The position numbers and the translations under genes were made by a program. A stretch of DNA of 41,012 nucleotides from an uncultured Methanosarcinales archaeon (lineage in GTDB: Archaea; Nanobdellota; Nanobdellia; Woesearchaeales; DSVV01), in NCBI GenBank assembly GCA_964590935.1, contig CAZPXC010000005.1, positions 1-41,012 on the forward strand, written 5' to 3'. Position 1 is the stretch's first letter, and every line of letters begins with the position of its first letter. The notes under the pieces are model-generated. The model was not told where the DNA came from and made no database searches. It worked only from the letters and a program-made list of their open reading frames with translations. Shown here in pieces: positions 6,037 to 41,012 of this stretch.

Positions 6037-6089
6037 TTTTTCGTCCTCCCTTGCATATAATATCCTGATATATCTCAATAGCACGTTTA

Positions 6090-7687: not shown

Positions 7688-7777
7688 GCTATCACCCCAC
7701 CCCTGCTTATGCGGGCCGGATATAAAAATATTGTTATTCTTCGTATAAAAAGCCAGAATTCAGGTAATATGGCTATA

Positions 7778-8032: not shown

Positions 8033-8052
8033 TGTATAAAGGAATATTCCAT

Positions 8053-8066
8053 ATATTTTAAAATTT
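8053..8066 (-). promoter_or_regulatory. TATA-like box for the 84-aa ORF
   Basis: Minus-strand AAATTTTAAAATAT ends 20 nt before ATG 8032, the same geometry as the array promoters. Confidence 0.45.
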
Positions 8067-8176
8067 ACCTCAAAAGAATTGCAGTTCGCAAGCATCTCAG
8101 CATACTTTTATTTTGATGTTTTTTGCATAATTTTTATAAATGTTAATGCATTATACCCCAATCGGGGGATTTGTCT

Positions 8177-13442: not shown

Positions 13443-13445
13443 AGG

Positions 13446-13459
13446 CAAAATTTAAATAT
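13446..13459 (+). promoter_or_regulatory. TATA/BRE-like box of paralog B
   Basis: CAAAATTTAAATAT ends 21 nt before GTG 13481. Confidence 0.55.
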
Positions 13460-13480
13460 CCATTATATCAAAGTAATTCT

Positions 13481-15775: not shown

Positions 15776-15782
15776 AGAAACT

Positions 15783-15796
15783 AAATATTTTTAAAT
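15783..15796 (+). promoter_or_regulatory. TATA/BRE-like box of paralog C
   Basis: AAATATTTTTAAAT ends 23 nt before ATG 15820. Confidence 0.6.
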
Positions 15797-15819
15797 CCTG
15801 TTCATTCATTATAATATTT

Positions 15820-17460: not shown

Positions 17461-17465
17461 AGAAG

Positions 17466-20679: not shown

Positions 20680-20684
20680 TAACT

Positions 20685-20698
20685 AAACATTTTTAAAG
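20685..20698 (+). promoter_or_regulatory. TATA/BRE-like box upstream of paralog F
   Basis: AAACATTTTTAAAG ends 21 nt before ATG 20720. That ATG now opens only a 3-codon ORF (ATG AAA AGA TAG, 20720-20731); the F start is 26 nt further, at 20746. Confidence 0.55.
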
Positions 20699-20745
20699 TC
20701 TGTTAATCTTATATTTTTCATGAAAAGATAGGGGTCTGAAAAGAG

Positions 20746-23655
20746 ATGAAAGATAAAAATGTCTTTTTGTTTTTTATCATTGAAACATTTATTTTTATGA
20801 TATTTGTCTGGAATGCTTCTGCCACGGATATTTCAATCAGTTGTTCATCCGCATCCAGTGTGAATTCCGCAATATCCTCTGCGGAAGACGGTGATATACT
20901 GGAATGCACTGGCTCCGGATGGTCGTCTGGTATTGTTACGATGCCAACTGATAAGGGCATCACACTGGATGGAAACGGGGCGACAGTAAACGGAGGAGGG
21001 TTAACCATTGATGCTAGCTCTTATTTTAACAGGGTTACCAATATTCATTTCATCAACATTCCTGAACAAGGGATTTCAGTAGACGGTACCCTGACCAGCC
21101 AGCCATGGAGGATGGATCACTGTACATTTGCATCAAACAATCATCATGTGATTGTGGGGAACAGGTATGCCACGGGTGTTATAGACCATTCCACGTTTAC
21201 GCTTTCGCTTTCAAACCATGAGTTTATAGCAAATTGGGGATGGGGGCCCGGAAGCACTACAGGATGGACCAATTCACAACCTCCGGGTAGCCGGGCAGCT
21301 TTGTATATCGAGGATTGCACTGTTAACGGCATACCTGGCTCTACGGCAGACTGTTTGATCCAGGACTATTACGGATCAAGGGCAGTAATCAGATACAATA
21401 CCATAAGTAACGCTATGATCGAAGCCCATGGGAACACAGCATACTCCACAAGGTGGCTGGAGATCTATAAGAATACGTTTCCAGGATCAAATCTGGACAT
21501 ATGCATGAGGGGCGGTTCAGGTATAGTTTTCGGCAATGACAACCCTTCCAGCAGGTTTGTAGAGGAAATCCTTAATTGTGCTGGTGGTGATAGTGGATGT
21601 GATGAGGTCGGAAAGGGCCAGGATTGGGTTCAGTATCCCCTATATTGGTGGGACAACGCAGGCGCATCTCCCACATTGAATCAGGAGGGATGCGCGCCTG
21701 CAATCTCCGGTGCAATTGTAGCCGGCCTTGATGTCATATCCGGCGTCGGAAGCGGAACATCATTGCCCGCTACCTGCCAACAGTATGATGCTTATTGGAA
21801 AACAGATGCAGGAGGGAACTGGGACACCACCAACGGGGATTCAAACGACGGAGCGCTTTATAAGTGCGATGCCAGCGGAAACTGGCAGCTCTATTACATT
21901 CCATACACTTATCCGTATTCGCTTACAGGCTCAGCAGGCCAAAGCAATGCGATTATTCCTGCCGACAGGAGGATCGACTGGAGCGGTGCCGGCGTTTCAG
22001 GAGGTATCCCGGTCAGGGATACAATATGTGCAAATGTGAAAAATGCACCGTACAATGCTTATGGCGATGGTGTACATGATGATACAGCCGCAATCCAGCA
22101 GGCGCTCGATGACTGTCCTGACAACCAGGTGGTCTACATGCCGCCGGGAACATACAGGACAACTGACACCGTTCACCTGTACAGCTATGACACGCTGCGC
22201 GGTGCAGGGCCTGGCCAGTCCATAATCAGCCTGGACAGCGATGCTCGCTCAGCCCTGGATATCAGGGGAAACTTCTATTGGGCAGTGACCGGTGTGCAGA
22301 AGATATATTCAGTCACAGACGGCATGTCCAAAGGCTCGACCCAGGTAACGCTGAGCGATGTCACTGACATCAATGTAGGAGACGAGCTCCTGATAGACCA
22401 GCTGAATGACGGCGATACTGTGGATGCGCTTGGCAGCGAAGGCTTCTGTACCTACTGTGGCCGTGCAGAGGGAACAAGGACAAAGGGGCAGATCGTCGAT
22501 GTGACAGGGGTATCGGGAAAGAACGTCATGATAAGCCCGCCGCTTTATTGGAGCCTCAACGCATCACTGAGCCCAGAGGCAGTGCTTGTCGATGACAATT
22601 GGCTGATAAAGCATGCCGGGGTCGAGAACCTGAGCATAACCCAGCCTGCCCCGCATGCCATGTATCTGGTGGAGATCGATGGTGCGGCCTACTCGTGGCT
22701 GAAGGATGTGGAGCTGTCCAATGCCGACTGGAGGCTGGTCTGGATGATCGAAAGCCTCCACAACGAGATAAGGGACAGCTATTTCCATACAGGTCTGACC
22801 GGTTACGGCAGATCCCATGGTTACGGTGTGCTCCTGGACGACTACACTACGGCAAGCCTGGTGGAAAACAACATATTCGAAAGCCTGGACGGCGGCTGTG
22901 TCATGACAGGAGGAGGCGCCTCTGGCAATGTCATAGGGTACAACTATTTCGTCGATGCAAGGTTCGACGACGAATGGTGGATGACGCCCAGCCCTTCGCT
23001 CAACCATAATCCCCACCCTTCCATGAACCTCTGGGAAGGCAACATAGGCTATCAGGCTGAGGCTGACGACATCCACGGCTCAAGCAGCCATAATACTGTC
23101 TTCAGGTGCGTCTCGAAAGGCTACCAGAACGAGACCATCACCTCGTTCAACAATGCCGTAACGCTCGGCTATAAGCAGAGGTACTACAATGTGATCGGCT
23201 GCATACTTGGCACGCCCGGCAAGTCCCAGGTGTATGAACAGGCACCGCCGGGCAATGCGAATTCTGATGTAAGGACGATATGGAATCTCGGCTATGGCGG
23301 GCCAAACAATGCGGTTGATACACAGACCAAAGCAACATTGCTGCGGCACGGCAATTTCGACTATGTGACGAACTCCGTCGTCTGGGACCCGTCTATCAGC
23401 GATCACAGCCTGCCTGATTCGCTCTATCTCTCTTCAAAGCCGTCCTGGTTCGGCTCTGTGCCCTGGCCTCCTATAGGGCCTGACGTCACGGGCTATGTGA
23501 ACAAGATACCGGCTCAGATGAGGTTCGAAGGCATGCCTAGCTGTACCTCTATCACAAACATCCAACTTCTGGCTGTGCTCAACCAATGGCGGACAGGGGA
23601 TATTACCATGTCCCAGATGCTGCAGGCGATAGCTGTTTGGAAGAACGGCTGCTGA
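20746..23655 (+). CDS. Array paralog F: fusion of a C/D-class body (aa ~27-394) and an A/B-class beta-helix body (aa ~403-930) with a shortened 37-aa tag
   Basis: Signal peptide MKDKNVFLFFIIETFIFMIFVWNASA. SCSSASSVNSAISSAEDGDILEC...DGALYKCDASGNWQLYYIPYTYPYSL is followed directly by IIPADRRIDWSGAGVSGGIPVRDTICA...YGDGVHDDTAAIQQALDDCPDNQVVYMPPGTY...LPDSLYLSSKPSWFGSVPWPPIGPDV. Tag 23542-23652. Confidence 0.85.
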   Translation: MKDKNVFLFFIIETFIFMIFVWNASATDISISCSSASSVNSAISSAEDGDILECTGSGWSSGIVTMPTDKGITLDGNGATVNGGGLTIDASSYFNRVTNIHFINIPEQGISVDGTLTSQPWRMDHCTFASNNHHVIVGNRYATGVIDHSTFTLSLSNHEFIANWGWGPGSTTGWTNSQPPGSRAALYIEDCTVNGIPGSTADCLIQDYYGSRAVIRYNTISNAMIEAHGNTAYSTRWLEIYKNTFPGSNLDICMRGGSGIVFGNDNPSSRFVEEILNCAGGDSGCDEVGKGQDWVQYPLYWWDNAGASPTLNQEGCAPAISGAIVAGLDVISGVGSGTSLPATCQQYDAYWKTDAGGNWDTTNGDSNDGALYKCDASGNWQLYYIPYTYPYSLTGSAGQSNAIIPADRRIDWSGAGVSGGIPVRDTICANVKNAPYNAYGDGVHDDTAAIQQALDDCPDNQVVYMPPGTYRTTDTVHLYSYDTLRGAGPGQSIISLDSDARSALDIRGNFYWAVTGVQKIYSVTDGMSKGSTQVTLSDVTDINVGDELLIDQLNDGDTVDALGSEGFCTYCGRAEGTRTKGQIVDVTGVSGKNVMISPPLYWSLNASLSPEAVLVDDNWLIKHAGVENLSITQPAPHAMYLVEIDGAAYSWLKDVELSNADWRLVWMIESLHNEIRDSYFHTGLTGYGRSHGYGVLLDDYTTASLVENNIFESLDGGCVMTGGGASGNVIGYNYFVDARFDDEWWMTPSPSLNHNPHPSMNLWEGNIGYQAEADDIHGSSSHNTVFRCVSKGYQNETITSFNNAVTLGYKQRYYNVIGCILGTPGKSQVYEQAPPGNANSDVRTIWNLGYGGPNNAVDTQTKATLLRHGNFDYVTNSVVWDPSISDHSLPDSLYLSSKPSWFGSVPWPPIGPDVTGYVNKIPAQMRFEGMPSCTSITNIQLLAVLNQWRTGDITMSQMLQAIAVWKNGC
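23542..23652 (+). other. Degenerate 37-aa C-terminal tag lacking the acidic loop (F)
   Basis: CTSITNIQLLAVLNQWRTGDITMSQMLQAIAVWKNGC-stop; the 9 residues corresponding to GADSDGDSV are missing. Confidence 0.75.
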
Positions 23656-23660
23656 TAACC

Positions 23661-23674
23661 AAACATTTTTAAAA
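23661..23674 (+). promoter_or_regulatory. TATA/BRE-like box of paralog G
   Basis: AAACATTTTTAAAA ends 21 nt before ATG 23696. Confidence 0.6.
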
Positions 23675-23695
23675 TCTGCTTGTTCATTATAATTT

Positions 23696-32089: not shown

Positions 32090-33487
32090 ATGAGAAAAAA
32101 GGGGTTGATCGTCTTTTGGTTCATATTGATAACTGGACTATTTTTTATTGGAAACGTGAAAGCATCTACAATCAATGCAGCGAATTGTTCACAATCTGCT
32201 GTTCAGTCTGCAATCAATTCTTCTACATCAGGGGATACGGTCAAGGTGCCGGCAGGAAGCTGCACATGGAGCTCCACGCTTACCATCGATAAAAATATCA
32301 ACCTTAAAGGTGCAGGGGTTGAGAAGACAATAATTACATATTCGGGAGGGCCGATTCTTGATTACATCGGTGATGATACAGCCGACGATTCCCGGTTGTC
32401 AGGTTTTTCCTTAAACGGTTATTTTAATTTTGACGGCCCAGGCAATCCCTCAACATGGTTAAGGATAGACCACCTGAATGTGACTTCTGATTACTCAGGA
32501 TATTGGGCGACCCCCTGGGGTACAAGAGGGATCCTGATCGATCACTGTGAATTTCATTACACAGGAAGCACGCCTATGAGGATGTTCATATTTAACGGAG
32601 AGGGGGGTGCAGACCCTGATGTCTGGAGGGAGGATTCTGCTGTCGGAACAGACAGGAATGTCTTTATCGAGGATACGATACTGGATGGCGGAACAAAAGT
32701 CATGAGCGGGAATCACATGGCTTTCCAGGTATGGTGGGCAGGCAGGGTAGTGATGAGGCATTGCACTATCATTAATTTTGCAATTGATGCCCATGATTAT
32801 AGAGATTCATCCCAGCGTGGGGCAAGAAACTGGGAGATCTATGATAATAACTGGACCCGTACTCCCGGGATTGATCTGGAATGGATGAATTTCCGCGCAG
32901 GAACAGGGGTTGTCTACAATAACCGGATGACCGAAAGCAATCCAAGGCATGGTATAAAACTGATGGCATATAGTGTTTATGGCTATGTTTCGCCGTGCTG
33001 CTGCCTGGAATCGCCTGACTATATGTATAATATGGACGGTATCGGCCGTGGAAAGTTTACCGGCACCAAGATTCCCGGTGACAGTTCATTGTTCCAGGAC
33101 TGCCAGGACAGGGAAGCCTGGGGCCAGCAGCTTGAGCCTGCCTATTTCTGGAACAACACCAGAGACGGAGTGACAATTGACCCAAGTCCTGGAAGTGACT
33201 GTGGTTGCGCTTCTGAGTGTGGGCAATCCCAATGCGAGACTGACGCCATACAGGAAGGCAGGGATTATTTCAATTATGCAAAGCCCGGTTACGCCCCCTA
33301 CACATACCCTCATCCACTGACACATTCAGGGAATCTGACAGCCTCATGTTCCTCAGGAGCTGATGATGATGGTGATTCAGTTGTTTCAAATCTGGAATTA
33401 ACTGGTTTTATTTCTGATTGGAAAGGTGGAACCGTTACAATCGGCAATTTGATTGCTGCTGTTTCCGAATGGAAGAACGGATGCTAG
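32090..33487 (+). CDS. Array paralog L: secreted protein of the 'INAA-CS / VPAGSCTW' class with C-terminal tag
   Basis: Signal peptide MRKKGLIVFWFILITGLFFIGNVKA. STINAANCSQSAVQSAINSSTSGDTVKVPAGSCTW. YAPYTYPHPL. Tag 33347-33484. Confidence 0.85.
   Translation: MRKKGLIVFWFILITGLFFIGNVKASTINAANCSQSAVQSAINSSTSGDTVKVPAGSCTWSSTLTIDKNINLKGAGVEKTIITYSGGPILDYIGDDTADDSRLSGFSLNGYFNFDGPGNPSTWLRIDHLNVTSDYSGYWATPWGTRGILIDHCEFHYTGSTPMRMFIFNGEGGADPDVWREDSAVGTDRNVFIEDTILDGGTKVMSGNHMAFQVWWAGRVVMRHCTIINFAIDAHDYRDSSQRGARNWEIYDNNWTRTPGIDLEWMNFRAGTGVVYNNRMTESNPRHGIKLMAYSVYGYVSPCCCLESPDYMYNMDGIGRGKFTGTKIPGDSSLFQDCQDREAWGQQLEPAYFWNNTRDGVTIDPSPGSDCGCASECGQSQCETDAIQEGRDYFNYAKPGYAPYTYPHPLTHSGNLTASCSSGADDDGDSVVSNLELTGFISDWKGGTVTIGNLIAAVSEWKNGC
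33347..33484 (+). other. 46-aa C-terminal tag (L)
   Basis: CSSGADDDGDSVVSNLELTGFISDWKGGTVTIGNLIAAVSEWKNGC-stop. Confidence 0.8.
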
Positions 33488-33586
33488 AAGAGAGGTGTTT
33501 TAACTTATATTTTTATCTAATTTTATGGAAAACAAAAAAGCAATTGTTATAGAGCTTCATGTTTATGGGTACCCTCTAATTTGACA

Positions 33587-33600
33587 AAACATTTATATTA
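33587..33600 (+). promoter_or_regulatory. TATA/BRE-like box of paralog M
   Basis: AAACATTTATATTA ends 20 nt before ATG 33621. It lies in the only long (133-nt) intergenic spacer of the array, which also carries T-runs after the stop of L. Confidence 0.55.
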
Positions 33601-33620
33601 TAATATTTCTATATAACCTT

Positions 33621-35885
33621 ATGAAAAGAGGGATGAAAGGAAGATTCTTAGTTTTTGCAGTTATTTTAGCCCTGTTTTTTATTCCAAAATCAAATGCAGC
33701 TGTTTTATGGTCAGAAAATTTTAATGAGTTCAGTGCTGATTGGTCCCAAAATGACCTGCAGGACGGCAGGCCAAATTGTCCGTCAGGATATGACTACTGC
33801 GCTGCTGATACTCAGGGAGATTATGGAAGTCCAGATATCGAGATAACAACTGCAGCGGAGCGTTCCGATCCTGACGGCAATAACAGGGGTTTCAGGTTGC
33901 ATATATGGAGAGATTCGGGCGGAACTTGTTGTGAGAACGGGATAACCGACGCCAGCCTTTGGCCAGGACAAACCAATTTCTATTTGAGAACCTATTTGCG
34001 TTTAGATTTCAATTCTCAAACATCATACGCAAAGCTATTTAGGATTAAGGATTCTTCAAACACTCAACGGTTTATTTTAGATCTTTACAATAAATATGGA
34101 TACGGCGGTACTGTTTTTACGCTCGGAAGTAGCGCAGATGGATTCGGAAATGACTATCCAAATACAAATTACAAGCTGGAGAATGACTATACCCCCAATA
34201 CATGGATAAGTGTGGAACTGTTCATAGACCAAACAAACCATCAATGGACATTGTGGGTTGACGGCGTTCAGCAGGGCAGTCCTGTATCTATTCCTACGTC
34301 AAATTATGTCATAACAGGGACGATGATAGGAGGAAACCAAGTCGGTCAGGGGACTGTGGACCATATAATTGATTATGATGATCTCGCTGTGGGTGATTCT
34401 TATATAGGTCCTGCTGGTGGAGGGGACACAACCCCTCCTGCCATATCAGGGGTATCACCGACAGGGACACTTCCCTTTGGAACGAGCCAGGCAACCCTCT
34501 CCCTGGCCACGGATGAGACAGCCACGTGCAGGTACTCGACAACTCCCGGGACGGCATATTCCTCTATGACCGGGACCTTCACCGGATCGACGAGCCACTC
34601 GGCGACAGTCAGTGTCTCTGACGGAAACACCTATAACTATTATGTCCGGTGCCAGGACCAGGCAGGCAATACCAACCCCGGCGATTACCCAATAAGCTTC
34701 AATGTGGCTCAGGCAGGGATACCTGCAATAAGCTCTGTCTCGGGCGATATCTCAAATGGACAGACTGTCACGATAAGCGGGAGCGGGTTTGGTGCCACAG
34801 GCCCTGATGTCATCCTGTTTGATGATTTTGATACAGGAGCAAATGGCCAAAATCTTGCATCTTCTCCGCAAATCGGTTCATGGGACAGGAATGATGCTCC
34901 TTATGCCACTTACAGCAATTCACAGCATCACAGCGGAACACAGTCGGCTCAAGCAGTGCATACTCCTTCATTGTCATGGTCAAACTTCAATGTAGAGTTC
35001 AGCAGTCCATCAACGCTTTATGGAAGCTTCTGGTTCAGGGTATCCAGCTTTGGTGGGGGTGGGCAGTACAAATTAAACCAGGTACACGGAGACTGCAATT
35101 GTGGCGATTTTGCTCCCGGAGTCATGACAGGGGATATGGGTGCGGGTTGGTGGAAAACCTATATCTCCTATGAGGATGGTTCAACTAGTGATCAATATAG
35201 CGCGAATTATCCCAATTCTCCTTCTGCTAATGCATGGCATCATTTCGAGTGGATTGGGCGTCAGTCATCAGGAGGTGTATCAGACGGATCAGTCAAAATT
35301 TATATAGATGGTATTAAGGTCACGCCATCGTTTATGGATTCTGTGAAGACCAGAAATTCTGCTGGTAATAGTTGGTATCTATTTGAATTTTTTACCGGAC
35401 TTACAAATATGGCATCTTCAGTTACGACTTGGATTGATGACGCTTATCTTTCTGCGTCATGGGCAAGGATTGAGATATGCAATGCAAATACAAACTCAGG
35501 GTCCAGCCACTGTGAAATACAAATTCCTTCATCCTGGTCATCTGATTCGATAACAGTAACAGTAAACCAAGGTTCCTTCACTTCAGGTCAGACTGCATAC
35601 CTATATGTTGTTGATTCAACAGGTTCAGTAAATGCAGATGGTTATCCGATCACCCTTGGAGCGGGGGTAGGCCCGGTCTGCGGAAATGGGAACTGTGAGA
35701 GCGGAGAAACGCCAGCAGGCTGTCCTGCTGATTGCACAAGTTCATGCACATCAGGAGCAGACAGCGACGGAGACAGTGTTGTTTCAAATCTGGAATTGAC
35801 CGGTTTTATCTCTGATTGGAAAAGTGGGAGTGTTGCGATAGGCGAACTGATCGCTGCGGTTAATGATTGGAAGAACGGGTGCTAG
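33621..35885 (+). CDS. Array paralog M: secreted double jelly-roll (ConA/LamG-like) protein + 'ATCRYS' module + IPT/TIG-like segment + 4-Cys knot + C-terminal tag
   Basis: Signal peptide MKRGMKGRFLVFAVILALFFIPKSNA. LamG-like signatures NTWISVELFIDQTNHQWTLWVDGVQQG and NAWHHFEWIGRQ...VKIYIDGIKV. 'ATCRYS' module ~34428-34706. IPAISSVSGDISNGQTVTISGSGFG. CGNGNCESGETPAGCPADC (35679-35735). Tag 35745-35882. Confidence 0.8.
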   Translation: MKRGMKGRFLVFAVILALFFIPKSNAAVLWSENFNEFSADWSQNDLQDGRPNCPSGYDYCAADTQGDYGSPDIEITTAAERSDPDGNNRGFRLHIWRDSGGTCCENGITDASLWPGQTNFYLRTYLRLDFNSQTSYAKLFRIKDSSNTQRFILDLYNKYGYGGTVFTLGSSADGFGNDYPNTNYKLENDYTPNTWISVELFIDQTNHQWTLWVDGVQQGSPVSIPTSNYVITGTMIGGNQVGQGTVDHIIDYDDLAVGDSYIGPAGGGDTTPPAISGVSPTGTLPFGTSQATLSLATDETATCRYSTTPGTAYSSMTGTFTGSTSHSATVSVSDGNTYNYYVRCQDQAGNTNPGDYPISFNVAQAGIPAISSVSGDISNGQTVTISGSGFGATGPDVILFDDFDTGANGQNLASSPQIGSWDRNDAPYATYSNSQHHSGTQSAQAVHTPSLSWSNFNVEFSSPSTLYGSFWFRVSSFGGGGQYKLNQVHGDCNCGDFAPGVMTGDMGAGWWKTYISYEDGSTSDQYSANYPNSPSANAWHHFEWIGRQSSGGVSDGSVKIYIDGIKVTPSFMDSVKTRNSAGNSWYLFEFFTGLTNMASSVTTWIDDAYLSASWARIEICNANTNSGSSHCEIQIPSSWSSDSITVTVNQGSFTSGQTAYLYVVDSTGSVNADGYPITLGAGVGPVCGNGNCESGETPAGCPADCTSSCTSGADSDGDSVVSNLELTGFISDWKSGSVAIGELIAAVNDWKNGC
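35745..35882 (+). other. 46-aa C-terminal tag (M)
   Basis: CTSGADSDGDSVVSNLELTGFISDWKSGSVAIGELIAAVNDWKNGC-stop. Confidence 0.8.
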
Positions 35886-35899
35886 AAAGATTTATAAAT
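35886..35899 (+). promoter_or_regulatory. TATA/BRE-like box of paralog N
   Basis: AAAGATTTATAAAT ends 20 nt before ATG 35920. Confidence 0.55.
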
Positions 35900-35919
35900 A
35901 TCATTTATTCATTTTGTTC

Positions 35920-38091
35920 ATGAAAATAAAGGGGTTAATTGTTTCGGGAGTTTTGTTTTTATTTGTGGTTAGTTATGTTTCTGCAGCTATTTCTTTTACC
36001 AACGGTTATTGGTCGACCTCTTTTAACGAAGGATGTGATGCTGAGTGGACATGGTCTTCCACTAATTACCATCCACCATGCTATCCTGAATATGACCGCG
36101 GAGGCGATAACGAGTGCAATGGCCAAGGCGAGCAAATAACATCTGCTGCCAATAATCCTTCTGGCGGTGGTGGGAGAGGACAGAGACATTGGGAAGGTGA
36201 TGGGTCGAATGCGAATAGTGGAGGTCTGGCCACATCTCTTTCTGGACTAACAGAAATATGGATACGGTTCTATATGCGCTACCAGTCAGGATTCGCGTGG
36301 AGCGGCAATTCAGTCCATTATGACAAGATCATCTACATAAATCCAGCTGGCACGGGCCAATACATAATTCCTGAATTTCACGATAATGTACTTGCCATTA
36401 CGACAAATGTTGCTATCGCAAGCTCAACAACGTGGCAGGATGTCATGGGCGGGAACACAGCAGATGGTCAATGGCATTGCTACGAATTCCACATGAACAC
36501 TAATGATGGCACTGCCCAAGCATGGCTGGATGGAAACCCCATAATAGACACGACTAGCACTAGTCTTATTGGACGAACGATGAATAGAATTGGTATTGGC
36601 AGCAATCAAGATGACCCTAATAATGGAGGTTGCTACTATGTTGATTTTGATGACATAGCCATAGCACTTCCGTCCTACACAGGTTTTGTCACAGACTCAA
36701 ACGGAAACCCTATGATAGGTCCGATTTCAGCGAATTGCGACGACGGGGTTTGCGATTCAGGAGAAACCTGCTTACAGGATAGTTGTTGTGATGGGGCCAG
36801 TTACGATACAGGAACACAGGTTTGTTGTTCAGGAACAGTATATACTGGAACCTGTTGTTCAACCTCTGATTGTTCAGGAACTGATACTTGTGAAAATCAT
36901 ATTTGCACTGCTCAGGCAGGGATACCTGCAATAAGCTCTGTCTCGGGCGATATCTCAAATGGACAGACTGTCACGATAAGCGGGAGCGGTTTCGGGTCGA
37001 AGACCCAGGCCGGACCTTTGATTTCAAGTTATGATGATGCAAATACTGCTGATAATTTTTACAGCATGGGTGTCGGGAGCGCTCCCGGTGGTAGCTGGAG
37101 GTCTTATGGTTCTGTCAGCATACAAACAAGTGATAAGAGATCCTCAAATTATCAGAATGAGAAATATGTCAGGACCGATTTTAATGACGGCAATTATCAT
37201 TTTCTTAGAGCTTACACTTCAGGAAGTTCTTTTTATGTCTCTTTTTGGTGGAGAACAACACAGAGCATTTCACAGCCTTCAGGAGGAAATGCCAAGTTTG
37301 TGCTGCTATGGCCTCAGGGAACCGGAGGAAGCGCAAGCCATATCCAGGAGGCTTTTTGGGGAAGCCCTGTAAATGTTATACGCAGTGCACAGGATAATGG
37401 AGGTTCGCCTTATGACGACTGGACAAATATGATCCCTTCAAGTCCCTTTACAACCTGGCACCATATGGAGATAATGGCAGATGCTTCAAGCTGGTGGTCG
37501 ACTCAGGACTATGAGCATACCAGGACCTGGGGCGGATTCAATCTTGGAAGCTTCTCTTCTCCCGAATGGAGGTTCGGGCATGGGACAGGAGGGGGGAGCG
37601 GGGGCTATATTGAGATCGACCAGGTGTATATTGACGATACAAAAGCGCATGTTTTCATCTCAGATAAGAGCAGCATGGGAAGCTGGTCAACATATTCAGG
37701 CAAGGCTCATACAGAAATCCAGGTCCCTTCAGCCTGGTCTGGCTCTTCAATCTCATTCACGTTAAATCAGGGCTCGTTCTTTGATGGAGAAACGGTTTAC
37801 CTGTATGTGGTTGATGAGAACGGCGAAATAAATGCAGATGGTTATCCGATCACCCTTGGAGCGGGGACAGGCCCTGTCTGCGGAGACGGAGATTGTGAGA
37901 GCGGGGAAACGCCTGCAGACTGTCCTGCTGATTGCGGAGGCACAGGTTCATGCATATCAGGCGCAGACAGCGACGGAGACTCGGTTGTTTCAAATGAAGA
38001 ATTGATAAGTTACATCTCTGAATGGGAATCAGGAACAGTTACAATCGGCGACCTTATTGCCGCGATCGCTGAATGGAAGAACGGGTGCTAA
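35920..38091 (+). CDS. Array paralog N: secreted double jelly-roll (ConA/LamG-like) protein with Cys-rich insert, IPT/TIG-like segment, 4-Cys knot and C-terminal tag
   Basis: Start ATG 35920 (track 35863 begins inside M). Signal peptide MKIKGLIVSGVLFLFVVSYVSA. GQWHCYEFHMNTNDGTAQAWLDGNPI. Cys-rich insert CDDGVCDSGETCLQDSCCDG...CENHIC. IPAISSVSGDISNGQTVTISGSGFG. CGDGDCESGETPADCPADC (37879-37935). Tag 37951-38088. Confidence 0.8.
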   Translation: MKIKGLIVSGVLFLFVVSYVSAAISFTNGYWSTSFNEGCDAEWTWSSTNYHPPCYPEYDRGGDNECNGQGEQITSAANNPSGGGGRGQRHWEGDGSNANSGGLATSLSGLTEIWIRFYMRYQSGFAWSGNSVHYDKIIYINPAGTGQYIIPEFHDNVLAITTNVAIASSTTWQDVMGGNTADGQWHCYEFHMNTNDGTAQAWLDGNPIIDTTSTSLIGRTMNRIGIGSNQDDPNNGGCYYVDFDDIAIALPSYTGFVTDSNGNPMIGPISANCDDGVCDSGETCLQDSCCDGASYDTGTQVCCSGTVYTGTCCSTSDCSGTDTCENHICTAQAGIPAISSVSGDISNGQTVTISGSGFGSKTQAGPLISSYDDANTADNFYSMGVGSAPGGSWRSYGSVSIQTSDKRSSNYQNEKYVRTDFNDGNYHFLRAYTSGSSFYVSFWWRTTQSISQPSGGNAKFVLLWPQGTGGSASHIQEAFWGSPVNVIRSAQDNGGSPYDDWTNMIPSSPFTTWHHMEIMADASSWWSTQDYEHTRTWGGFNLGSFSSPEWRFGHGTGGGSGGYIEIDQVYIDDTKAHVFISDKSSMGSWSTYSGKAHTEIQVPSAWSGSSISFTLNQGSFFDGETVYLYVVDENGEINADGYPITLGAGTGPVCGDGDCESGETPADCPADCGGTGSCISGADSDGDSVVSNEELISYISEWESGTVTIGDLIAAIAEWKNGC
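37951..38088 (+). other. 46-aa C-terminal tag (N), closest to the family consensus
   Basis: CISGADSDGDSVVSNEELISYISEWESGTVTIGDLIAAIAEWKNGC-stop. Confidence 0.8.
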
Positions 38092-38098
38092 AGAAACC

Positions 38099-38112
38099 AA
38101 ATATTTTTAAAT
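38099..38112 (+). promoter_or_regulatory. TATA/BRE-like box of paralog O
   Basis: AAATATTTTTAAAT ends 21 nt before ATG 38134. Confidence 0.6.
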
Positions 38113-38133
38113 TCTGTTTATCTATTATATAAA

Positions 38134-39930
38134 ATGAAAAAGGGGATTGAAAAAAAATTCTTGCTCTTGGTTGTTGGATTGTTTTTGATTGTGAATTCTG
38201 TTGTAAGCGTTTTGGGTGCTACTTATTATGTCAGGCAGGATGGTTCGGGTGACTTTGCAACAATACAAGCCTGCGCAGATGCTGCCACGCAAGGGGATAC
38301 TTGTTTGGTTTATCCAGGTAGCTATGATGAGAGAGTATCTTTCCATAGTTCTGGGTCAGACGGGTCGCCGATAATTTTCAAGGCAAACGAAAATGCAAAG
38401 GTCAGGGCATTTACGATAACCAACCAGGCCTACATAAGTATAGATGGATTTGAGATCACGCATGAAGGCATGACTCAGGAAGCCTCAAGCACTATACATG
38501 CCTCCATATTCATGGATTCTACCAGCCATATCAATATACTTAACAATTATATACATGACACTGTGCGACCATGCATTTCAGAGCATCAAAGTGCATCCAC
38601 CTTCGCCGACTATACCTGGATAAAGAACAATACGCTGCGACAATGTGGTCACGGGACCGCAACAGGCATAGAGATATTCGGCAGCCACAATCTGGTTGAA
38701 GACAATGACATCTCAAATTCCGGCGGGGACTTCATGCGCCTCACCGGCGGTGATTTCAACGTCGTAAGGAACAATGTCTGGCATGACAACATCAATCCTG
38801 ATTCCACGTACCATATCGACGGGCTTCAGCATTGGTGCTCCAGTTCTGTGCCTGTCTCAACACATCACCTACTGATAGAAAACAACCTGATGTATAATGC
38901 GCCTGATGCCAATTCGCATTTTACAATATTCCAGGATATTGGCGGAGACTGCAATAGCTCTGGATTCATTCTAAGATACAATACTGCAAGAGATTTAGGC
39001 AGCAGCTTCGCCGGCACAGATGATGGAAACGGACTGAAGGGGGTGGATAATCTGATTATATACAGCAATACATTAGTGGATTTAGGTACTGCACAAGATC
39101 CCAAACCATGGAGTATAGTATCCCATTCAGACCAAGCTGCCGGTGGCATGGTGCTGAACAATATCTTCTACAATGTGGTAAGAGATGGGGGTTATGTGCA
39201 CTACAGGGATGCAGCCCTCTCAGGCAGTTGGCATGCAGACTACAATCTCGGGTATAATTCCCTGTGCGAAGCATCCTGCATCTGGGGAAACCAGGATTAT
39301 TCCATAAAGCAGGAACCGCATGGTTTGTTGAATGAGGATCCGCTATTCGAGGATTTTGCTTCGCATGATTATGCATTGGAGCCTGATTCTCCTGCTGTGA
39401 ACGCCGGGGGGCCTCTTACCACTGTTTCAGCTGCTGACAGCGGCACAGGAAGGGATTTGGATGTTGAGAATGCAGAATTCTTCCAGGACAGCTGGGCAGG
39501 AGTCGATCCTGACTGGATTGCGGTCGGCTCAGTCAGCAATGTCATGGGGATTTCATCTATTGATTATGACACAAACACAATTACGCTTGCAGGCTCGATA
39601 TCAAGAAATCAGGGAGATCCTGTTTATTTATACAAGGATTCAGATGGGACAAGGGTCCTTTACGGAAGCGCTCCGGACATAGGCGCGTATGAATTTGTTT
39701 CAGGAACAGGTTCTGTTTGCGGAAATGGGGACTGTGAGAGCGGAGAGACCCCTGCAAGTTGCCCTGCTGATTGCGCAGATGCGAGCTCCTGCATATCAGA
39801 TGTAGACAGCGACGGAGATTCAGCTGTTTCAACTGGTGAATTAACTGATTATATTTCTTCCTGGAAATTAGGAAATGTAACAATCAGCGACCTGATAGCT
39901 GCAATAGGTGAGTGGAAGAACGGGTGTTGA
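38134..39930 (+). CDS. Array paralog O: secreted PbH1 beta-helix protein ('TYYV' class) + 4-Cys knot + C-terminal tag
   Basis: Signal peptide MKKGIEKKFLLLVVGLFLIVNSVVSVLGA (about 90% identical in DNA to J). TYYVRQDGSGDFATIQACADAATQGDTCLVYPGSYDE. ILNNYIHD, VEDNDISN, VRNNVWHDN, IENNLMYN. PDIGAYEF. CGNGDCESGETPASCPADC (39718-39774). Tag 39790-39927. Confidence 0.85.
   Translation: MKKGIEKKFLLLVVGLFLIVNSVVSVLGATYYVRQDGSGDFATIQACADAATQGDTCLVYPGSYDERVSFHSSGSDGSPIIFKANENAKVRAFTITNQAYISIDGFEITHEGMTQEASSTIHASIFMDSTSHINILNNYIHDTVRPCISEHQSASTFADYTWIKNNTLRQCGHGTATGIEIFGSHNLVEDNDISNSGGDFMRLTGGDFNVVRNNVWHDNINPDSTYHIDGLQHWCSSSVPVSTHHLLIENNLMYNAPDANSHFTIFQDIGGDCNSSGFILRYNTARDLGSSFAGTDDGNGLKGVDNLIIYSNTLVDLGTAQDPKPWSIVSHSDQAAGGMVLNNIFYNVVRDGGYVHYRDAALSGSWHADYNLGYNSLCEASCIWGNQDYSIKQEPHGLLNEDPLFEDFASHDYALEPDSPAVNAGGPLTTVSAADSGTGRDLDVENAEFFQDSWAGVDPDWIAVGSVSNVMGISSIDYDTNTITLAGSISRNQGDPVYLYKDSDGTRVLYGSAPDIGAYEFVSGTGSVCGNGDCESGETPASCPADCADASSCISDVDSDGDSAVSTGELTDYISSWKLGNVTISDLIAAIGEWKNGC
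39790..39927 (+). other. 46-aa C-terminal tag (O)
   Basis: CISDVDSDGDSAVSTGELTDYISSWKLGNVTISDLIAAIGEWKNGC-stop. Confidence 0.8.
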
Positions 39931-39932
39931 GG

Positions 39933-39945
39933 AAATATTTTTAAA
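39933..39945 (+). promoter_or_regulatory. TATA-like box abutting the start codon of paralog P (spacer deleted)
   Basis: GGAAATATTTTTAAA is followed immediately by ATG 39946. The same box upstream of J is followed by a 21-nt spacer. Confidence 0.4.
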
Positions 39946-41012
39946 ATGAAAAGAGAGGTAATTGTTTTTGGGATCATATCTTTAGTAGGATTATTTATTT
40001 TTATTGAAGGGGTTAATGCTGCGATGATTAATGCCGCGAACTGTTCATTTGCTGATGTTTCTTCTGCAGTTGCTTCTGCTTCTTCTGGGGATACTGTGAA
40101 TGTTCCTGCTGGGAATTGCACTTGGTCAAGTACATTGACTATTAGCAAATCTATTTATCTTGCTGGTGCTGGACCATCATCTACAGTTATTTCTAGGTCT
40201 GTTGTGGGGAAAATTATCAGCGTCTCACTTTCATCTGATGTTCCTTTACGTATTTCTGGGTTTGGTTTTGTGTTTCCGACAAATCAACCCACCGGAGATT
40301 ATATGACAGCTATTTATGTTGTACGTGGAGTAGAGCTTACCCAAATAAGGATAGACCATAATGCTTTTACTAAAGGACATGGCACTCTTTTTATTACTGG
40401 TCAAGTCTATGGGGTTGCTGATAATAACCTATTCACTAATGTAAATGTGAATTATTTTGTTGGACCTGATGATCTTGCATGGAATGGCCCCATTGAAGCA
40501 GGAACAGCCAATGCCTTTTTCTTTGAGAATAATACTATAATTGTAAATGATGGTTCTGAAAGTAAAAGCCCGGATGCTGTAGTCTATATTCAAGAGGGAT
40601 CAAGTGTCGTTGTTAGGGATAACACCTTTAATGCTAGTGCATTTACTACTAGTAGTTCTGGTCTGACTATTCTCAATAATCATGGTAATCAAGGATATTA
40701 TCCTAGCGGATCAGTGAGACGTGCGAGTTCTATTTTTGAAGCCTACAACAATACTGTTGCGGATTACGGTGGTATCTATGGCAATATGTTTGGTATTCGA
40801 GGTGGATCTGTATTGATATATGATAATACAATTACCCAGACGAATATACATACATTTAGCAAATTAAATGAAGAAGAGGCATGGCAAACTGCATTTTTTT
40901 CTCCTTTAAGGACAGAATGGCCTGCTCAGGATCAGGTGTTTAATAGCTTTTATTGGGGTAATACTCTAAATGGAAACCCAGTTTACCCTACAGTTGATAC
41001 TAGTTCTACAAT
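39946..41012 (+). CDS. Array paralog P (3'-truncated by window edge): secreted protein of the 'INAA-CS / VPAGSCTW' class
   Basis: Absent from the ORF track because it has no stop in the window. Hand translation is open to the last base: MKREVIVFGIISLVGLFIFIEGVNAAMINAANCSFADVSSAVASASSGDTVNVPAGNCTWSSTLTISKSIYLAGAG...IRIDHNAF...VRDNTFNA...IYDNTITQ... Confidence 0.8.
   Translation, partial: MKREVIVFGIISLVGLFIFIEGVNAAMINAANCSFADVSSAVASASSGDTVNVPAGNCTWSSTLTISKSIYLAGAGPSSTVISRSVVGKIISVSLSSDVPLRISGFGFVFPTNQPTGDYMTAIYVVRGVELTQIRIDHNAFTKGHGTLFITGQVYGVADNNLFTNVNVNYFVGPDDLAWNGPIEAGTANAFFFENNTIIVNDGSESKSPDAVVYIQEGSSVVVRDNTFNASAFTTSSSGLTILNNHGNQGYYPSGSVRRASSIFEAYNNTVADYGGIYGNMFGIRGGSVLIYDNTITQTNIHTFSKLNEEEAWQTAFFSPLRTEWPAQDQVFNSFYWGNTLNGNPVYPTVDTSST

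What the first reader, a model, noticed from the sequence alone, without database searches (positions are those of the whole stretch)
37951..38088. The shared C-terminal tag is an internally duplicated, Cys-bracketed dockerin/EF-hand-like module that ends exactly at the protein C-terminus
In 14 of 15 complete paralogs the first-Cys to last-Cys distance is exactly 46 aa and the last Cys is the final residue. Tag coordinates: A 13302-13439, B 15635-15772, C 17320-17457, D 18918-19055, E 20539-20676, G 25256-25393, H 26884-27021, I 28334-28471, J 30195-30332, K 31907-32044, L 33347-33484, M 35745-35882, N 37951-38088, O 39790-39927.

The loop DSDGDSVVSNEEL has Asp at positions 1, 3 and 5, Gly at 4, a hydrophobic residue at 8, and Glu/Asp at 12 followed by Leu. 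This is the pattern of a dockerin Ca-binding segment (D-x-N/D-G-D-x-x-V-x-x-x-D-L) or an EF-hand loop.

The module is a two-fold repeat, SVVSNEELIDYISEWKSG versus SVSIS-DLIAAIAEWKNG, as in two-segment dockerins. The second loop keeps Gly6, Val8, Asp12 and Leu13 but has lost the acidic ligands (S, W, S at positions 1, 3, 5). The invariant Cys pair could staple the two ends by a disulfide. A dockerin-like tag implies an unseen cohesin-like receptor or scaffold.
Basis: partly seen in the sequence, partly recalled or inferred. Interest (0 to 1): 0.85.

Follow-up and report, generated by a model that had tools for sequence, protein, structure and literature searches.

The report
Minimal dockerin-like calcium tag on archaeal surface proteins
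Sixteen neighbouring genes for secreted archaeal proteins all end in the same 46-residue, cysteine-bracketed module with one calcium-binding loop of the EF-hand/dockerin type, which probably acts as a shared handle holding these proteins on a surface partner that has not been found.

Summary
Fourteen of 15 complete paralogs end in a 46-residue Cys-to-Cys tag followed directly by a stop codon. The fifteenth, F, lacks 9 residues of the loop.

The tag is an autonomous small domain:
- It has one EF-hand-type Ca loop with no entering helix.
- It has two copies of a 17-residue unit, xVxIxELxxxIxxWKxG (hhalign E 1.3e-13).
- A closing Cys probably staples it to the first Cys.
- AlphaFold folds it confidently (pLDDT 95) as a loop plus a helical hairpin.

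It defines a family that no Pfam or NCBIfam model claims. The family has at least 786 clusters at 50% identity, mostly in DPANN-type archaeal MAGs (Woesearchaeota, Pacearchaeota). It sits on beta-helix, GH71, lectin-like and CBM9 passenger domains.

The closest curated model is NCBIfam NF041540, "GC-type dockerin". Matches to it are consistent but below its cut-off (at most 21.6 bits against 29). Pfam EF-hand models match about as weakly, and Pfam Dockerin_1 almost never matches.

No cohesin was found. The one candidate I modelled has a generic Ig-like fold.

Verdict: a new, shortened, single-site variant of the dockerin/EF-hand kind. Docking is the likeliest function, but Ca binding, the disulfide and the partner are all inferred.

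The parts
37951..38088 (+). Tag of paralog N (46 aa, Cys to Cys), followed by stop codon 38089-38091
   Evidence: Translation. AlphaFold model has pLDDT 95.3: residues 1-16 of the 48-residue query form a loop, with helices at 17-29 and 34-46.
37951..37953 (+). First Cys, 5 residues before the first Ca ligand
   Evidence: Present in 103/106 family members. Proposed disulfide partner of the last Cys (inference).
37966..38001 (+). 12-residue EF-hand-type Ca loop DSDGDSVVSNEE (ligand positions 1, 3, 5, 12) with no entering helix
   Evidence: Column statistics, PS00018 counts, sub-threshold Pfam EF-hand hits in 60/106 members, calmodulin loops hit by the family profile.
37984..38034 (+). Repeat 1 (VVSNEELISYISEWESG): second half of the loop, helix 1 and the W-x-x-G turn
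   Evidence: hhalign of repeat 1 against repeat 2: probability 98%, E 1.3e-13.
38035..38085 (+). Repeat 2 (TVTIGDLIAAIAEWKNG): ligand-less pseudo-loop and helix 2
   Evidence: Together with the final Cys it aligns to positions 49-67, the end, of NCBIfam dockerin_GC.
38086..38088 (+). Final Cys, the last residue of the protein
   Evidence: Present in 105/106 family members. It is the terminal residue in 121 of the 150 best representatives.
35863..38091 (+). ORF of paralog N (signal peptide, weak TIG and Laminin_G-like hits, Cys mini-knot, tag). The true start is probably the Met of MKIKGLIVSG... downstream of 35863.
13302..13439 (+). Tag A
15635..15772 (+). Tag B
17320..17457 (+). Tag C
18918..19055 (+). 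Tag D (loop variant DNNPLDG)
20539..20676 (+). Tag E (loop variant DNNPSDG)
23542..23652 (+). Tag F: 37 aa, Ca loop deleted, both repeats and both Cys kept
   Evidence: HMM E 1.7e-10.
25256..25393 (+). Tag G
26884..27021 (+). Tag H
28334..28471 (+). Tag I (loop DATRDG)
30195..30332 (+). Tag J
31907..32044 (+). Tag K
33347..33484 (+). Tag L
35745..35882 (+). Tag M
39790..39927 (+). Tag O
   Evidence: An NCBIfam choice_anch_Q domain lies just upstream.
11532..41012 (+). Tandem array of 16 same-strand genes (15 complete, the 16th cut by the contig end) for secreted proteins. Several have beta-helix or pectate-lyase-like hits. All complete ones carry the tag.

Best explanation
**What it is.** The tag is a self-contained extracellular mini-domain of about 46 residues. 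It is a shortened, half-degenerate relative of dockerin-type "F-hand" modules.

**How it is built.**
- A Cys lies 5 residues before a single EF-hand-type loop, D-x-[DN]-x-[DN]-G-x-[VI]-x-x-x-E.
- The second half of that loop and the helix after it form a 17-residue unit ending in W-K-x-G.
- The unit is repeated once, without Ca ligands. The result is an antiparallel helical hairpin.
- The final Cys is brought next to the first Cys and probably forms a disulfide with it. This would be a covalent version of the N-to-C "clasp" that stabilises bacterial dockerins.

**What it does.** The same module sits on many otherwise unrelated secreted proteins, including beta-helix, GH71, ConA-like lectin and CBM9 passengers. 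It most likely serves as a common Ca-stabilised docking handle that keeps them attached to one shared partner on the cell envelope, either the organism's own or a host's.

**Shown:** the domain boundaries, its conservation under purifying selection, the loop motif, the internal duplication, its autonomy and its distribution.

**Inferred:** Ca binding, the disulfide, and the existence and nature of the partner.
For: - **Conservation.** The tag is conserved at protein level with many synonymous changes.
- **Family size and position.** An exhaustive HMMER search finds 786 clusters at E<=1e-3 and 145 at E<=1e-10. Nearly all carry the module at the extreme C-terminus.
- **Taxonomy.** Related loci come mostly from Woesearchaeota and Pacearchaeota MAGs.
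- **Autonomy.** The module also occurs right after the signal peptide (P0079 with GH71, P0124), internally (P0104) and in tandem as a whole small secreted protein (P0077).
- **Fold.** AlphaFold gives pLDDT 95.3 with loop-helix-turn-helix. The N-terminal stretch holding the first Cys is also confidently placed (mean pLDDT 91).
- **Ca loop.** Ligand columns are near-invariant, and 89/147 representatives pass strict PS00018.
- **Profile hits to EF-hands.** Calmodulins are hit in the PDB at E 1e-9 to 1e-7.
- **Duplication.** hhalign E 1.3e-13.
- **Closest curated model.** NF041540 GC-type dockerin is matched by 12/15 window tags and 46/106 family members. The tag's last 19 residues, including GC, align to the profile's last 19 positions.
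- **Passengers.** They are polysaccharide-active or polysaccharide-binding, like dockerin cargo.
- **Position relative to known anchors.** A choice-of-anchor Q domain lies directly before the tag in ORF O, with 30.7 bits against a cut-off of 25. To my knowledge that domain is named for preceding various C-terminal anchors.
- **Clasp precedent.** Bacterial dockerins have a stabilising contact between residues just before loop 1 and the C-terminus (PMC3821032).
Against: - No tag reaches a curated threshold for any dockerin or EF-hand model. Dockerin_1 is matched by only 3/106 members.
- The profile scores C. thermocellum dockerin loops (about 7.5 bits) no better than calmodulin loops (about 8-10 bits). 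Similarity is confined to the loop.
- The Dx[DN]xDG motif recurs in at least twelve unrelated structural contexts (PMC3123361).
- Foldseek finds nothing for the model; the best E is 4.5.
- No window tag passes strict PS00018 (most carry Ser, not Gly, at loop position 6). Only 11/15 keep the relaxed ligand pattern, and paralog F lacks the loop altogether. Ca binding may therefore not be essential.
- No cohesin-like protein was found in the window or in 57 related loci.
- The modelled candidate (window 5566-6084) is a generic Ig/MG-like sandwich. Cohesins appear only from rank 34, at rmsd about 8 Å.
- I could not read model coordinates, so the Cys-Cys distance is unverified.
Confidence: 0.55

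Rival explanations
1. The module is a small Ca-dependent lectin-like or envelope-glycan-binding anchor. It would hold the proteins on S-layer or host-surface glycans, or on a polysaccharide substrate, rather than on a protein receptor.
For: - No cohesin or other consistent protein partner was found.
- Two invariant Trp-Lys pairs and one Ca site are features often used for sugar binding (the link to sugar binding is inference).
- The passengers are glycan-directed.
Against: - The Trp residues follow the same spacing as the hydrophobic residues of each helix (L26/I30/W33 and L43/I47/W50). They are therefore more likely core residues than exposed ones (inference).
- No similarity to any CBM or lectin family was detected.
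Confidence: 0.2
2. The module is only a structural cap. It would be a Ca- and disulfide-stabilised C-terminal plug that protects or stabilises secreted proteins, with no binding partner.
For: - Ca binding commonly serves structure stabilisation (PMC3123361).
- In 6 paralogs the tag follows the beta-helix terminal motif DIGAYE after only about 8-30 residues.
Against: - The same module is attached to unrelated folds. It also occurs at the N-terminus, internally, and as a stand-alone tandem protein. This fits a portable functional handle better than a fold-specific cap.
- Helix-surface positions are strongly conserved.
Confidence: 0.12
3. The module is a C-terminal sorting or processing signal. 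A dedicated export or anchoring enzyme would recognise it and then remove it or covalently transfer it through the terminal Cys.
For: - It lies at the extreme C-terminus in 121 of the 150 best representatives, with a near-invariant G-C end.
- Tagged genes often neighbour type-IV-pilus-like secretion ATPases (8 loci).
Against: - It has no transmembrane helix or basic tail, unlike PGF-CTERM, PEP-CTERM and LPXTG signals (sequence; one search shows a folded amphipathic hairpin).
- 21 of 150 representatives have an extra residue after the Cys.
- The module works in N-terminal, internal and tandem positions.
- The proteins already have ordinary Sec signal peptides.
Confidence: 0.08
4. The module is a self-association or cross-linking element. 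Tags would pair with each other, non-covalently or through intermolecular disulfides, and bundle different enzymes into complexes.
For: - The two halves are symmetric.
- There are two conserved Cys.
- Sixteen different tagged proteins are encoded side by side.
- One family member is a tandem-only protein that could act as an adaptor (P0077).
Against: - There is no direct evidence.
- The confident monomeric AlphaFold model has both termini well placed.
- Variants that add a second Cys pair inside the loop (6 representatives) suggest intramolecular pairing.
Confidence: 0.05

Closest known systems
GC-type dockerin domain (NCBIfam NF041540, dockerin_GC; 67-position model)
   Same: - It is the best-scoring curated model for the tag (12/15 window tags, 46/106 family members).
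- It has a loop-helix unit.
- It ends in Gly-Cys. Tag residues 28-46 align to profile positions 49-67.
- The tag's first stretch can align to the start of the profile.
- By its name it is a C-terminal anchoring domain on secreted proteins.

   Different: - Scores are 13-21.6 bits against a cut-off of 29.
- Natural tags match only as two separate stretches and lack the profile's middle, which would hold the second Ca loop.
- The tag is 46 residues against 67.
- Synthetic sequences in which I duplicated the tag's loop-helix unit cover the profile almost (positions 3-67) or fully (1-67) and still reach only 23.9 and 28.2 bits.
- I found no publication on NF041540 and could not obtain member sequences for a profile-profile test.
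Type I dockerin of cellulosomes (Pfam PF00404; e.g. C. thermocellum CelS dockerin, PDB 2MTE/1DAQ)
   Same: - It has duplicated loop-helix (F-hand) segments with no entering helix.
- It sits at the C-terminus of secreted carbohydrate-active proteins.
- It has a Dx[DN]xDG-type loop with a hydrophobic residue at position 8.
- The termini are held together: a clasp in dockerins (PMC3821032) and a putative disulfide here.
   Different: - The tag has one Ca site instead of two.
- Position 12 is Glu, as in EF-hands, where the CelS and CelD dockerin loops I compared have Asp.
- There is no linker or middle helix, and the length is 46 residues rather than about 65.
- PF00404 is matched by only 3/106 members, with best E 2.5e-4.
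- The family profile gives about 7.5 bits per CelS or CelD loop.
- Foldseek finds no match.
- No cohesin was found.
EF-hand (Pfam PF00036/PF13405/PF13202; PROSITE PS00018)
   Same: - The family consensus is a canonical 12-residue loop, and 89/147 representatives pass PS00018.
- The profile hits calmodulin.
- A Ca-binding loop is paired with a ligand-less pseudo-loop, as in some EF-hand pairs.
   Different: - There is no entering helix before the functional loop.
- The setting is an extracellular, disulfide-bracketed C-terminal tag.
- All Pfam scores are below gathering thresholds. The window's best is 15.7 bits against 25.4.
Other Dx[DN]xDG Ca-binding contexts (Rigden et al. 2011, PMC3123361), e.g. 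the Excalibur domain
   Same: - It is a short extracellular Ca-binding module built on the same linear motif.
- Some family variants carry Cys inside the loop (DTDCDGC).
   Different: - Excalibur is not among the Pfam families listed for the members (only 25 of 38 families are shown).
- The helices and the 17-residue duplication are specific to this family.

Membership tests
GC-type dockerin (NCBIfam NF041540) | HMM score at or above the curated cut-off (29 bits) | tested here: not met
   The best window tag scores 21.6 bits (E 2.2e-4). The best E-value is 1.6e-4 among the 15 window tags and 3e-4 among the 106 family tags. Every tag whose score was shown lies at 13-21.6 bits.
GC-type dockerin (NCBIfam NF041540) | Domain ends in Gly-Cys aligned to the end of the model | tested here: met
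   Tag N residues 28-46 (…EWKNGC) align to profile positions 49-67 of 67.
GC-type dockerin (NCBIfam NF041540) | Continuous coverage of the 67-position two-repeat model | tested here: not met
   Natural tags match as separate stretches: profile 1-38, 37-66 or 49-67. Among the sequences tested, only my synthetic duplicated-loop constructs covered the model almost or fully, as single stretches over positions 3-67 and 1-67.
Type I dockerin (Pfam PF00404) | Match to PF00404 at its gathering score | tested here: not met
   No window tag matches at E<=1. Only 3/106 family members match, with best E 2.5e-4.
Type I dockerin (Pfam PF00404) | Two Ca-binding F-hand loops | tested here: not met
   Only loop 1 has ligands. 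Loop 2 has S/A/G, invariant W and A/S/N at positions 1, 3 and 5.
Type I dockerin (Pfam PF00404) | Internally duplicated loop-helix segment with no entering helix | tested here: met
   hhalign of the two halves gives E 1.3e-13. AlphaFold shows residues 1-16 as non-helical.
Type I dockerin (Pfam PF00404) | Structural similarity to solved dockerins | tested here: inconclusive
   Foldseek against the PDB gives no hit better than E 4.5. The method is weak for a 48-residue, loop-rich query, and I had no coordinates for a direct superposition.
Type I dockerin (Pfam PF00404) | Binds a cohesin module | not testable with these tools
   No Cohesin hit was seen among the window proteins and selected neighbours that I scanned. 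The modelled DUF11-like candidate is not specifically cohesin-like. The rest of the genome is not available.
EF-hand (PF00036 / PS00018) | 12-residue loop with ligands at 1, 3, 5 and 12, Gly6 and a hydrophobic residue at 8 | tested here: met
   Family columns: D1 106/106, position 3 D/N/S, position 5 D/N/S, G6 56/106, V/I8 106/106, E12 104/106. 89/147 pass strict PS00018. Window tags: 0/15 strict, 11/15 relaxed.
EF-hand (PF00036 / PS00018) | Pfam gathering score | tested here: not met
   EF-hand_1 is matched by 9/15 window tags and 60/106 family members. The best window score shown is 15.7 bits against a gathering score of 25.4, and the best family E-value is 1.3e-4.
EF-hand (PF00036 / PS00018) | Helix-loop-helix with an entering helix | tested here: not met
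   The model has no helix before loop 1, and only 5 residues separate the first Cys from D1.
C-terminal sorting signals (PGF-CTERM, PEP-CTERM, LPXTG type) | Short motif followed by a hydrophobic transmembrane segment and a basic tail | tested here: not met
   The tag is acidic and amphipathic and ends in WKNGC. It has no hydrophobic stretch. It is predicted as a folded hairpin. No such NCBIfam model is matched.

The most novel reading that the evidence does not exclude
The tag is the "dockerin" half of an undescribed archaeal surface-display system whose receptor is not a cohesin. DPANN-type archaea would use this 46-residue Ca/disulfide module to hang interchangeable sets of glycan-active enzymes and adhesins on a dedicated envelope scaffold. 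Candidates are the membrane-anchored Ig-like (weakly WxLIP-like) proteins or the type-IV-pilin-like proteins that sit next to tagged genes in 12 of 26 related loci of at least 5 kb. The 16-gene array in this window would then be a repertoire of swappable surface tools for feeding on, or attaching to, a host or substrate.
Probability: 0.25. Interest if true: 0.8.

Novelty: new variant of a known kind. Interest (0 to 1): 0.58.

Why it matters
Woesearchaeota, Pacearchaeota and related DPANN archaea are almost all uncultured. They are thought to depend on contact with other cells or on external polymers, yet how they organise their surface proteins is largely unknown.

A single portable 46-residue handle is shared by hundreds of otherwise unrelated secreted proteins, and sixteen of them lie side by side here. 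That gives a concrete, testable entry point. The handle can be expressed, tested for Ca binding and for the disulfide, and used as bait to fish out the receptor.

It would also be the smallest dockerin-like module known to me. It has one Ca site and a covalent clasp, which could make it useful as a compact affinity or assembly tag.

If no partner exists, it is simply a new small Ca-binding domain family that current domain databases miss.

Tried and rejected
- **Foldseek of the tag model against the PDB.** Only trivial helix-hairpin matches (E>4). Uninformative rather than negative.
- **The word-indexed protein search.** It returned only 3-5 short hits per query. The family size became visible only through the exhaustive HMMER search.
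- **Cohesin hunt in the window.** The lipobox protein 5566-6084(-) and the N-terminal domain of the 920-aa membrane protein 2807-5569(-) begin with a cohesin-like "V-x-P-G-D-T-V" strand. I tested them.
  - Pfam calls the 920-aa protein's domain DUF11 (E 3.4e-7).
  - AlphaFold plus Foldseek gives a generic Ig/MG-like sandwich, with TRAP-beta and complement MG domains as top hits. Cohesins appear only from rank 34, at rmsd about 8 Å.
  - I rejected these as evidence for a cohesin.
- **A synthetic GC-dockerin-like peptide searched against plasmids by tblastn.** I wanted real family members for a profile-profile test. No match.
- **Literature searches.** Searches for "GC-type dockerin", dockerin with DPANN, Woesearchaeota or Pacearchaeota, and the run accession found nothing specific to this tag.
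- **Recent gene conversion as the cause of tag identity.** Rejected because of the abundant synonymous differences.
- **Apparent overlaps between consecutive ORFs.** Rejected as real. They come from an out-of-frame ATG inside the tag codons GAA-TGG-AAG.
- **Taxonomy of the window.** I could not pin it down beyond "archaeon", based on the RIO kinase. Tag relatives are mainly in DPANN MAGs.
Full report
**1. What is in the window**

The 41,012-base window is a whole contig. It comes from an archaeon: it carries a RIO-type kinase, an IMP dehydrogenase and a subtilase, and no tRNA genes.

From 11532 to the contig end there are 16 same-strand genes, 15 of them complete. Each starts with a Sec-type signal peptide. 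Several of those scanned have right-handed beta-helix or pectate-lyase-like hits, with occasional weak TIG or Laminin_G-like hits.

**2. The observation**

Every coordinate given for the 14 tags translates to a 46-residue peptide that begins and ends with Cys and is followed at once by a stop codon (DNA).

Paralog F keeps both Cys, both repeats and the WKNGC end, but it lacks 9 residues of the loop.

The tags are 68% identical in protein, against 24% for the preceding 150 residues. In DNA they are only 71% identical. Differences are concentrated at third codon positions, and there are 1078 synonymous codon differences.

This is purifying selection on a protein module. It is neither chance nor recent gene conversion.

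**3. Anatomy**

I aligned 106 diverse family members. The near-invariant columns are:
- Cys (103/106), then x3-4, then Ala.
- D1 (106/106), x, D/N/S at position 3, x, D/N/S at position 5.
- Gly as the commonest residue at position 6 (56/106), then x.
- V/I at position 8 (106/106), then S/D/E, then I, then x.
- E at position 12 (104/106), followed by Leu.

This is a textbook EF-hand-type loop. Of 147 representatives, 89 pass the strict PROSITE PS00018 pattern and 132 pass a relaxed ligand pattern.

No window tag passes the strict pattern; most have Ser instead of Gly at position 6. Eleven of 15 keep the relaxed ligand pattern.

From loop position 7 onward, a 17-residue unit, xVxIxEL-h-x-x-h-I-x-x-W-K-x-G, occurs twice in tandem:
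- hhalign of the two halves gives probability 98%, E 1.3e-13, over all 17 columns.
- Only the 17-residue register scores well.
- None of 20000 column shuffles reaches the observed score.

The last Cys (105/106) follows the second W-K-x-G directly.

AlphaFold2, given 18 sequences, predicts the 48-residue stretch with pLDDT 95.3:
- Residues 1-16 are a loop and include the first Cys. The mean pLDDT of residues 1-10 is 91.
- Residues 17-29 and 34-46 are helices.

So no entering helix precedes the Ca loop. This is an "F-hand" as in dockerins, not a full helix-loop-helix.

**4. The family**

The word-indexed search found almost nothing. An exhaustive HMMER search of 1.84 billion cluster representatives found 786 proteins at E<=1e-3 and 145 at E<=1e-10.

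Positions of the module among the 150 best representatives:
- 121 end exactly on the Cys.
- 21 have one more residue.
- 4 have 2-4 more residues.
- P0079 (a GH71 protein) and P0124 carry the module immediately after the signal peptide.
- P0104 has it internally.
- P0077, 119 aa, is nothing but a signal peptide and two tandem modules.

The module is therefore a portable folded domain, not an obligate C-terminal signal.

Passenger domains elsewhere include GH71, Laminin_G_3 (ConA-like), CBM9 and beta-helix.

A scan of one genome per species found 20 loci. Most are in MAGs labelled Woesearchaeota, Pacearchaeota or unclassified archaeon. Two MAGs are labelled Methanosarcinales. One 1.9-kb contig is binned as Desulfobacteraceae, which is probably a binning error. 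A metagenome scan added 37 loci, mostly short.

No other locus has more than 3 tagged genes, so the 16-gene array here is exceptional.

**5. Comparison with known families**

*NCBIfam.* The only recurrent hit is NF041540, "GC-type dockerin domain-anchored protein".
- It is matched by 12/15 window tags and 46/106 family members.
- Every score shown is below the 29-bit cut-off. The best window tag scores 21.6 bits.
- The tag's loop-helix unit can align to either half of the 67-position profile.
- The last 19 residues, including the terminal Gly-Cys, align to profile positions 49-67.
- I built artificial sequences in which the tag's loop-helix unit is duplicated. They cover the profile almost or fully (positions 3-67 and 1-67) but still score only 23.9 and 28.2 bits.
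- The tag therefore resembles this family at both ends, but it is shorter, lacks the second loop, and is not a member by the curated criterion.

*Pfam*.
- EF-hand_1 is matched by 60/106 members, EF-hand_6 by 53 and EF-hand_5 by 30. The best E-values are about 1e-4 and the window scores shown are below the gathering scores.
- Dockerin_1 is matched by only 3 members.

*PDB by sequence.*
- The family profile hits calmodulins and other EF-hand proteins at E 1e-9 to 1e-7. These values come from summing 4-8 loops of about 5-12 bits each.
- Scored the same way, the loops of the C. thermocellum CelS and CelD dockerins get about 7.5 bits, and calmodulin loops get 8-10 bits.
- Sequence similarity is thus confined to the Ca loop and cannot separate EF-hand from dockerin.
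- The Dx[DN]xDG motif occurs in at least twelve structural contexts (PMC3123361). Loop similarity alone does not prove common descent.

*PDB by structure.* Foldseek found nothing better than E 4.5. This is uninformative for so small a query.

*What makes the tag dockerin-like is its architecture and setting:*
- Duplicated loop-helix units with no entering helix.
- Attachment to secreted glycan-directed proteins.
- Termini that meet. Bacterial dockerins are stabilised by a non-covalent "clasp" between the residues just before loop 1 and the C-terminus. Mutating that clasp lowers Ca-induced folding, stability and cohesin binding (PMC3821032). The Cys pair here would be a covalent form of that clasp.

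Two variants bear on the Cys pairing, though weakly. Six representatives have an extra Cys pair at loop positions 4 and 7. P0115 lacks the first Cys and has a Cys at loop position 7. Both fit the last Cys pairing with something near the loop.

**6. The partner**

None of the window's other proteins matched Cohesin.

Two adjacent minus-strand genes caught my eye:
- 5566-6084 encodes a lipobox protein.
- 2807-5569 encodes a 920-aa Cys-rich protein with MopE motifs, a Ser/Thr-rich stalk and a C-terminal membrane helix.

They share a beta-sandwich domain (32% identity, E 6e-14). Pfam calls the 920-aa protein's copy DUF11 (E 3.4e-7).

I modelled the lipobox protein. The pLDDT is 80-96 within the domain. 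Foldseek returns generic Ig/MG-like sandwiches: TRAP-beta and complement C3 MG domains, at E 4e-5 to 3e-4 and TM about 0.45. Cohesins appear only from rank 34, at rmsd about 8 Å. This is not evidence for a cohesin.

In related loci, tagged genes lie close to three kinds of neighbour:
- Type-IV-pilus-like ATPases, in 8 loci.
- Pilin-like proteins with class III signal peptides, in 6 loci.
- A cassette of a ~165-aa membrane protein (4 loci) and a ~400-aa Ig-like, C-terminally membrane-anchored protein (6 loci). Four of 7 members of the latter weakly match Pfam WxLIP_HBD (best E 2.3e-4, below threshold).

Twelve of the 26 loci of at least 5 kb have at least one of these neighbours. They are leads for a receptor, not findings.

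**7. Most likely mechanism**

Shown:
- The tag is a conserved, autonomous, confidently foldable 46-residue domain.
- It has one canonical Ca-loop motif, an internal duplication and a bracketing Cys pair.
- It is attached to many unrelated secreted passengers.

Inferred:
- Ca binds the loop and nucleates helix 1.
- The hairpin brings the two Cys together, and a disulfide locks the fold.
- The exposed faces of the two symmetric helices bind a shared partner on the envelope, so that diverse enzymes and binders are displayed together.

I put this at about 0.55. The chief rival is a glycan rather than a protein ligand (0.2). Then come a purely structural cap (0.12), a sorting or processing signal (0.08) and self-association (0.05).

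Two points argue that Ca is not strictly essential. Paralog F lacks the loop. In three further window tags (D, E, I) the loop departs from the relaxed ligand pattern.

**8. Novelty and score**

No Pfam or NCBIfam model claims the family at its threshold, and I found no paper on it.

Conceptually it is a new, minimal, single-site variant of a known kind: dockerin/EF-hand-type docking modules, with the GC-type dockerin as the nearest named relative.

The implied cohesin-like receptor remains unsupported.

I score interest at 0.58. This is a sizeable unannotated family in a poorly understood group of archaea, with a very clean experimental handle, but it is not a new principle.

Noticed in passing
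L002:1344-3040, L006:2852-4560 and 7427-9013, L017:6180-7921, L042:2256-3842, L053:1983-5009, L055:6245-7980: A conserved cassette lies next to tagged genes in six loci from different organisms. It encodes a ~165-aa membrane protein (found in 4 of the loci) and a ~400-aa protein with a signal peptide, Ig-like domains and a C-terminal TM helix; three loci also have a ~139-aa protein. Four of 7 copies of the 400-aa protein weakly match Pfam WxLIP_HBD (best E 2.3e-4, below threshold). It is a possible membrane receptor for the tag. It is absent from the window.
   Followed up: partly
L003:1-687 and 7577-8410, L008:9621-12139, L009:1485-3773, L011:9783-11654, L013:2948-3757, L020:593-4137, L047:2173-7417: Tagged genes are often within a few kb of type-IV-pilus-like genes: T2SSE/FlaI-type ATPases in 8 loci and pilin-like proteins with class III signal peptides in 6. 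Twelve of 26 loci of at least 5 kb have one of these or the 400-aa cassette.
   Followed up: partly
window 2807-5569 (-) and 5566-6084 (-): Two adjacent surface proteins share a DUF11-like beta-sandwich (32% identity). One is a small lipobox (LTGC) protein. The other is a 920-aa protein with dozens of Cys in MopE-like repeats, a Ser/Thr-rich stalk, a C-terminal TM helix and a Pro/Gln-rich cytoplasmic tail. The modelled fold is a generic Ig/MG-like sandwich, not specifically a cohesin.
   Followed up: yes
window 13424, 15706, 17391, 19033, 25378, 28452, 35863 (ORF starts): The apparent overlaps between consecutive paralog ORFs are artefacts. Where I checked (13424), an ATG inside the tag codons GAA-TGG-AAG-AAC-GGG-TGC opens another frame (MEERVLK…) that runs into the next gene. 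The other overlapping starts translate to similar read-through peptides of the tag end. The real starts are the downstream Met or Val before each signal peptide.
   Followed up: yes
window about 25190-25250, 35680-35740, 37870-37945, 39715-39785: A 4-Cys mini-knot, CG[DN]GxCExGETPxxCPADC, lies just before the tag in paralogs G, M, N and O. Its CPAD stretch is probably what lets the start of the dockerin_GC profile align upstream of the tag.
   Followed up: partly
window 39586-39696 (aa 485-521 of ORF 38134-39930): An NCBIfam "choice-of-anchor Q" domain scores 30.7 bits, above its cut-off of 25, directly before the tag. The related motif DIGAYE[YF] ends the beta-helix in paralogs E, G, I, J, K and O only about 8-30 residues before the tag.
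   Followed up: partly
proteins P0099, P0133, P0140, P0141, P0150, P0104 (family members): A sub-family has a second Cys pair inside the Ca loop (D-T-D-C-D-G-C). Other variants end in G-x-G-C (P0077, P0120, P0129, P0135, P0148). P0115 lacks the first Cys and has a Cys at loop position 7.
   Followed up: no
window 20746-23655 (paralog F): This is the longest paralog (969 aa) and the only complete one whose tag has lost the Ca loop. It still ends in WKNGC and keeps both Cys. It is a natural control for whether Ca binding is needed.
   Followed up: partly
window 467-2542 (+) and 8171-9589 (+): The subtilase (Peptidase_S8, E 2e-46) has a ~400-aa N-terminal region with no family match and no obvious signal peptide. 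The 472-aa protein has only a borderline RelA/SpoT-like nucleotidyltransferase hit (26.8 bits against a gathering score of 27).
   Followed up: no
window 11532-41012: GC skew is steadily positive across the whole paralog array. Cumulative skew rises from about 0.15 to 1.70, in line with all genes lying on one strand. GC content varies between paralogs from 0.40 to 0.53.
   Followed up: no
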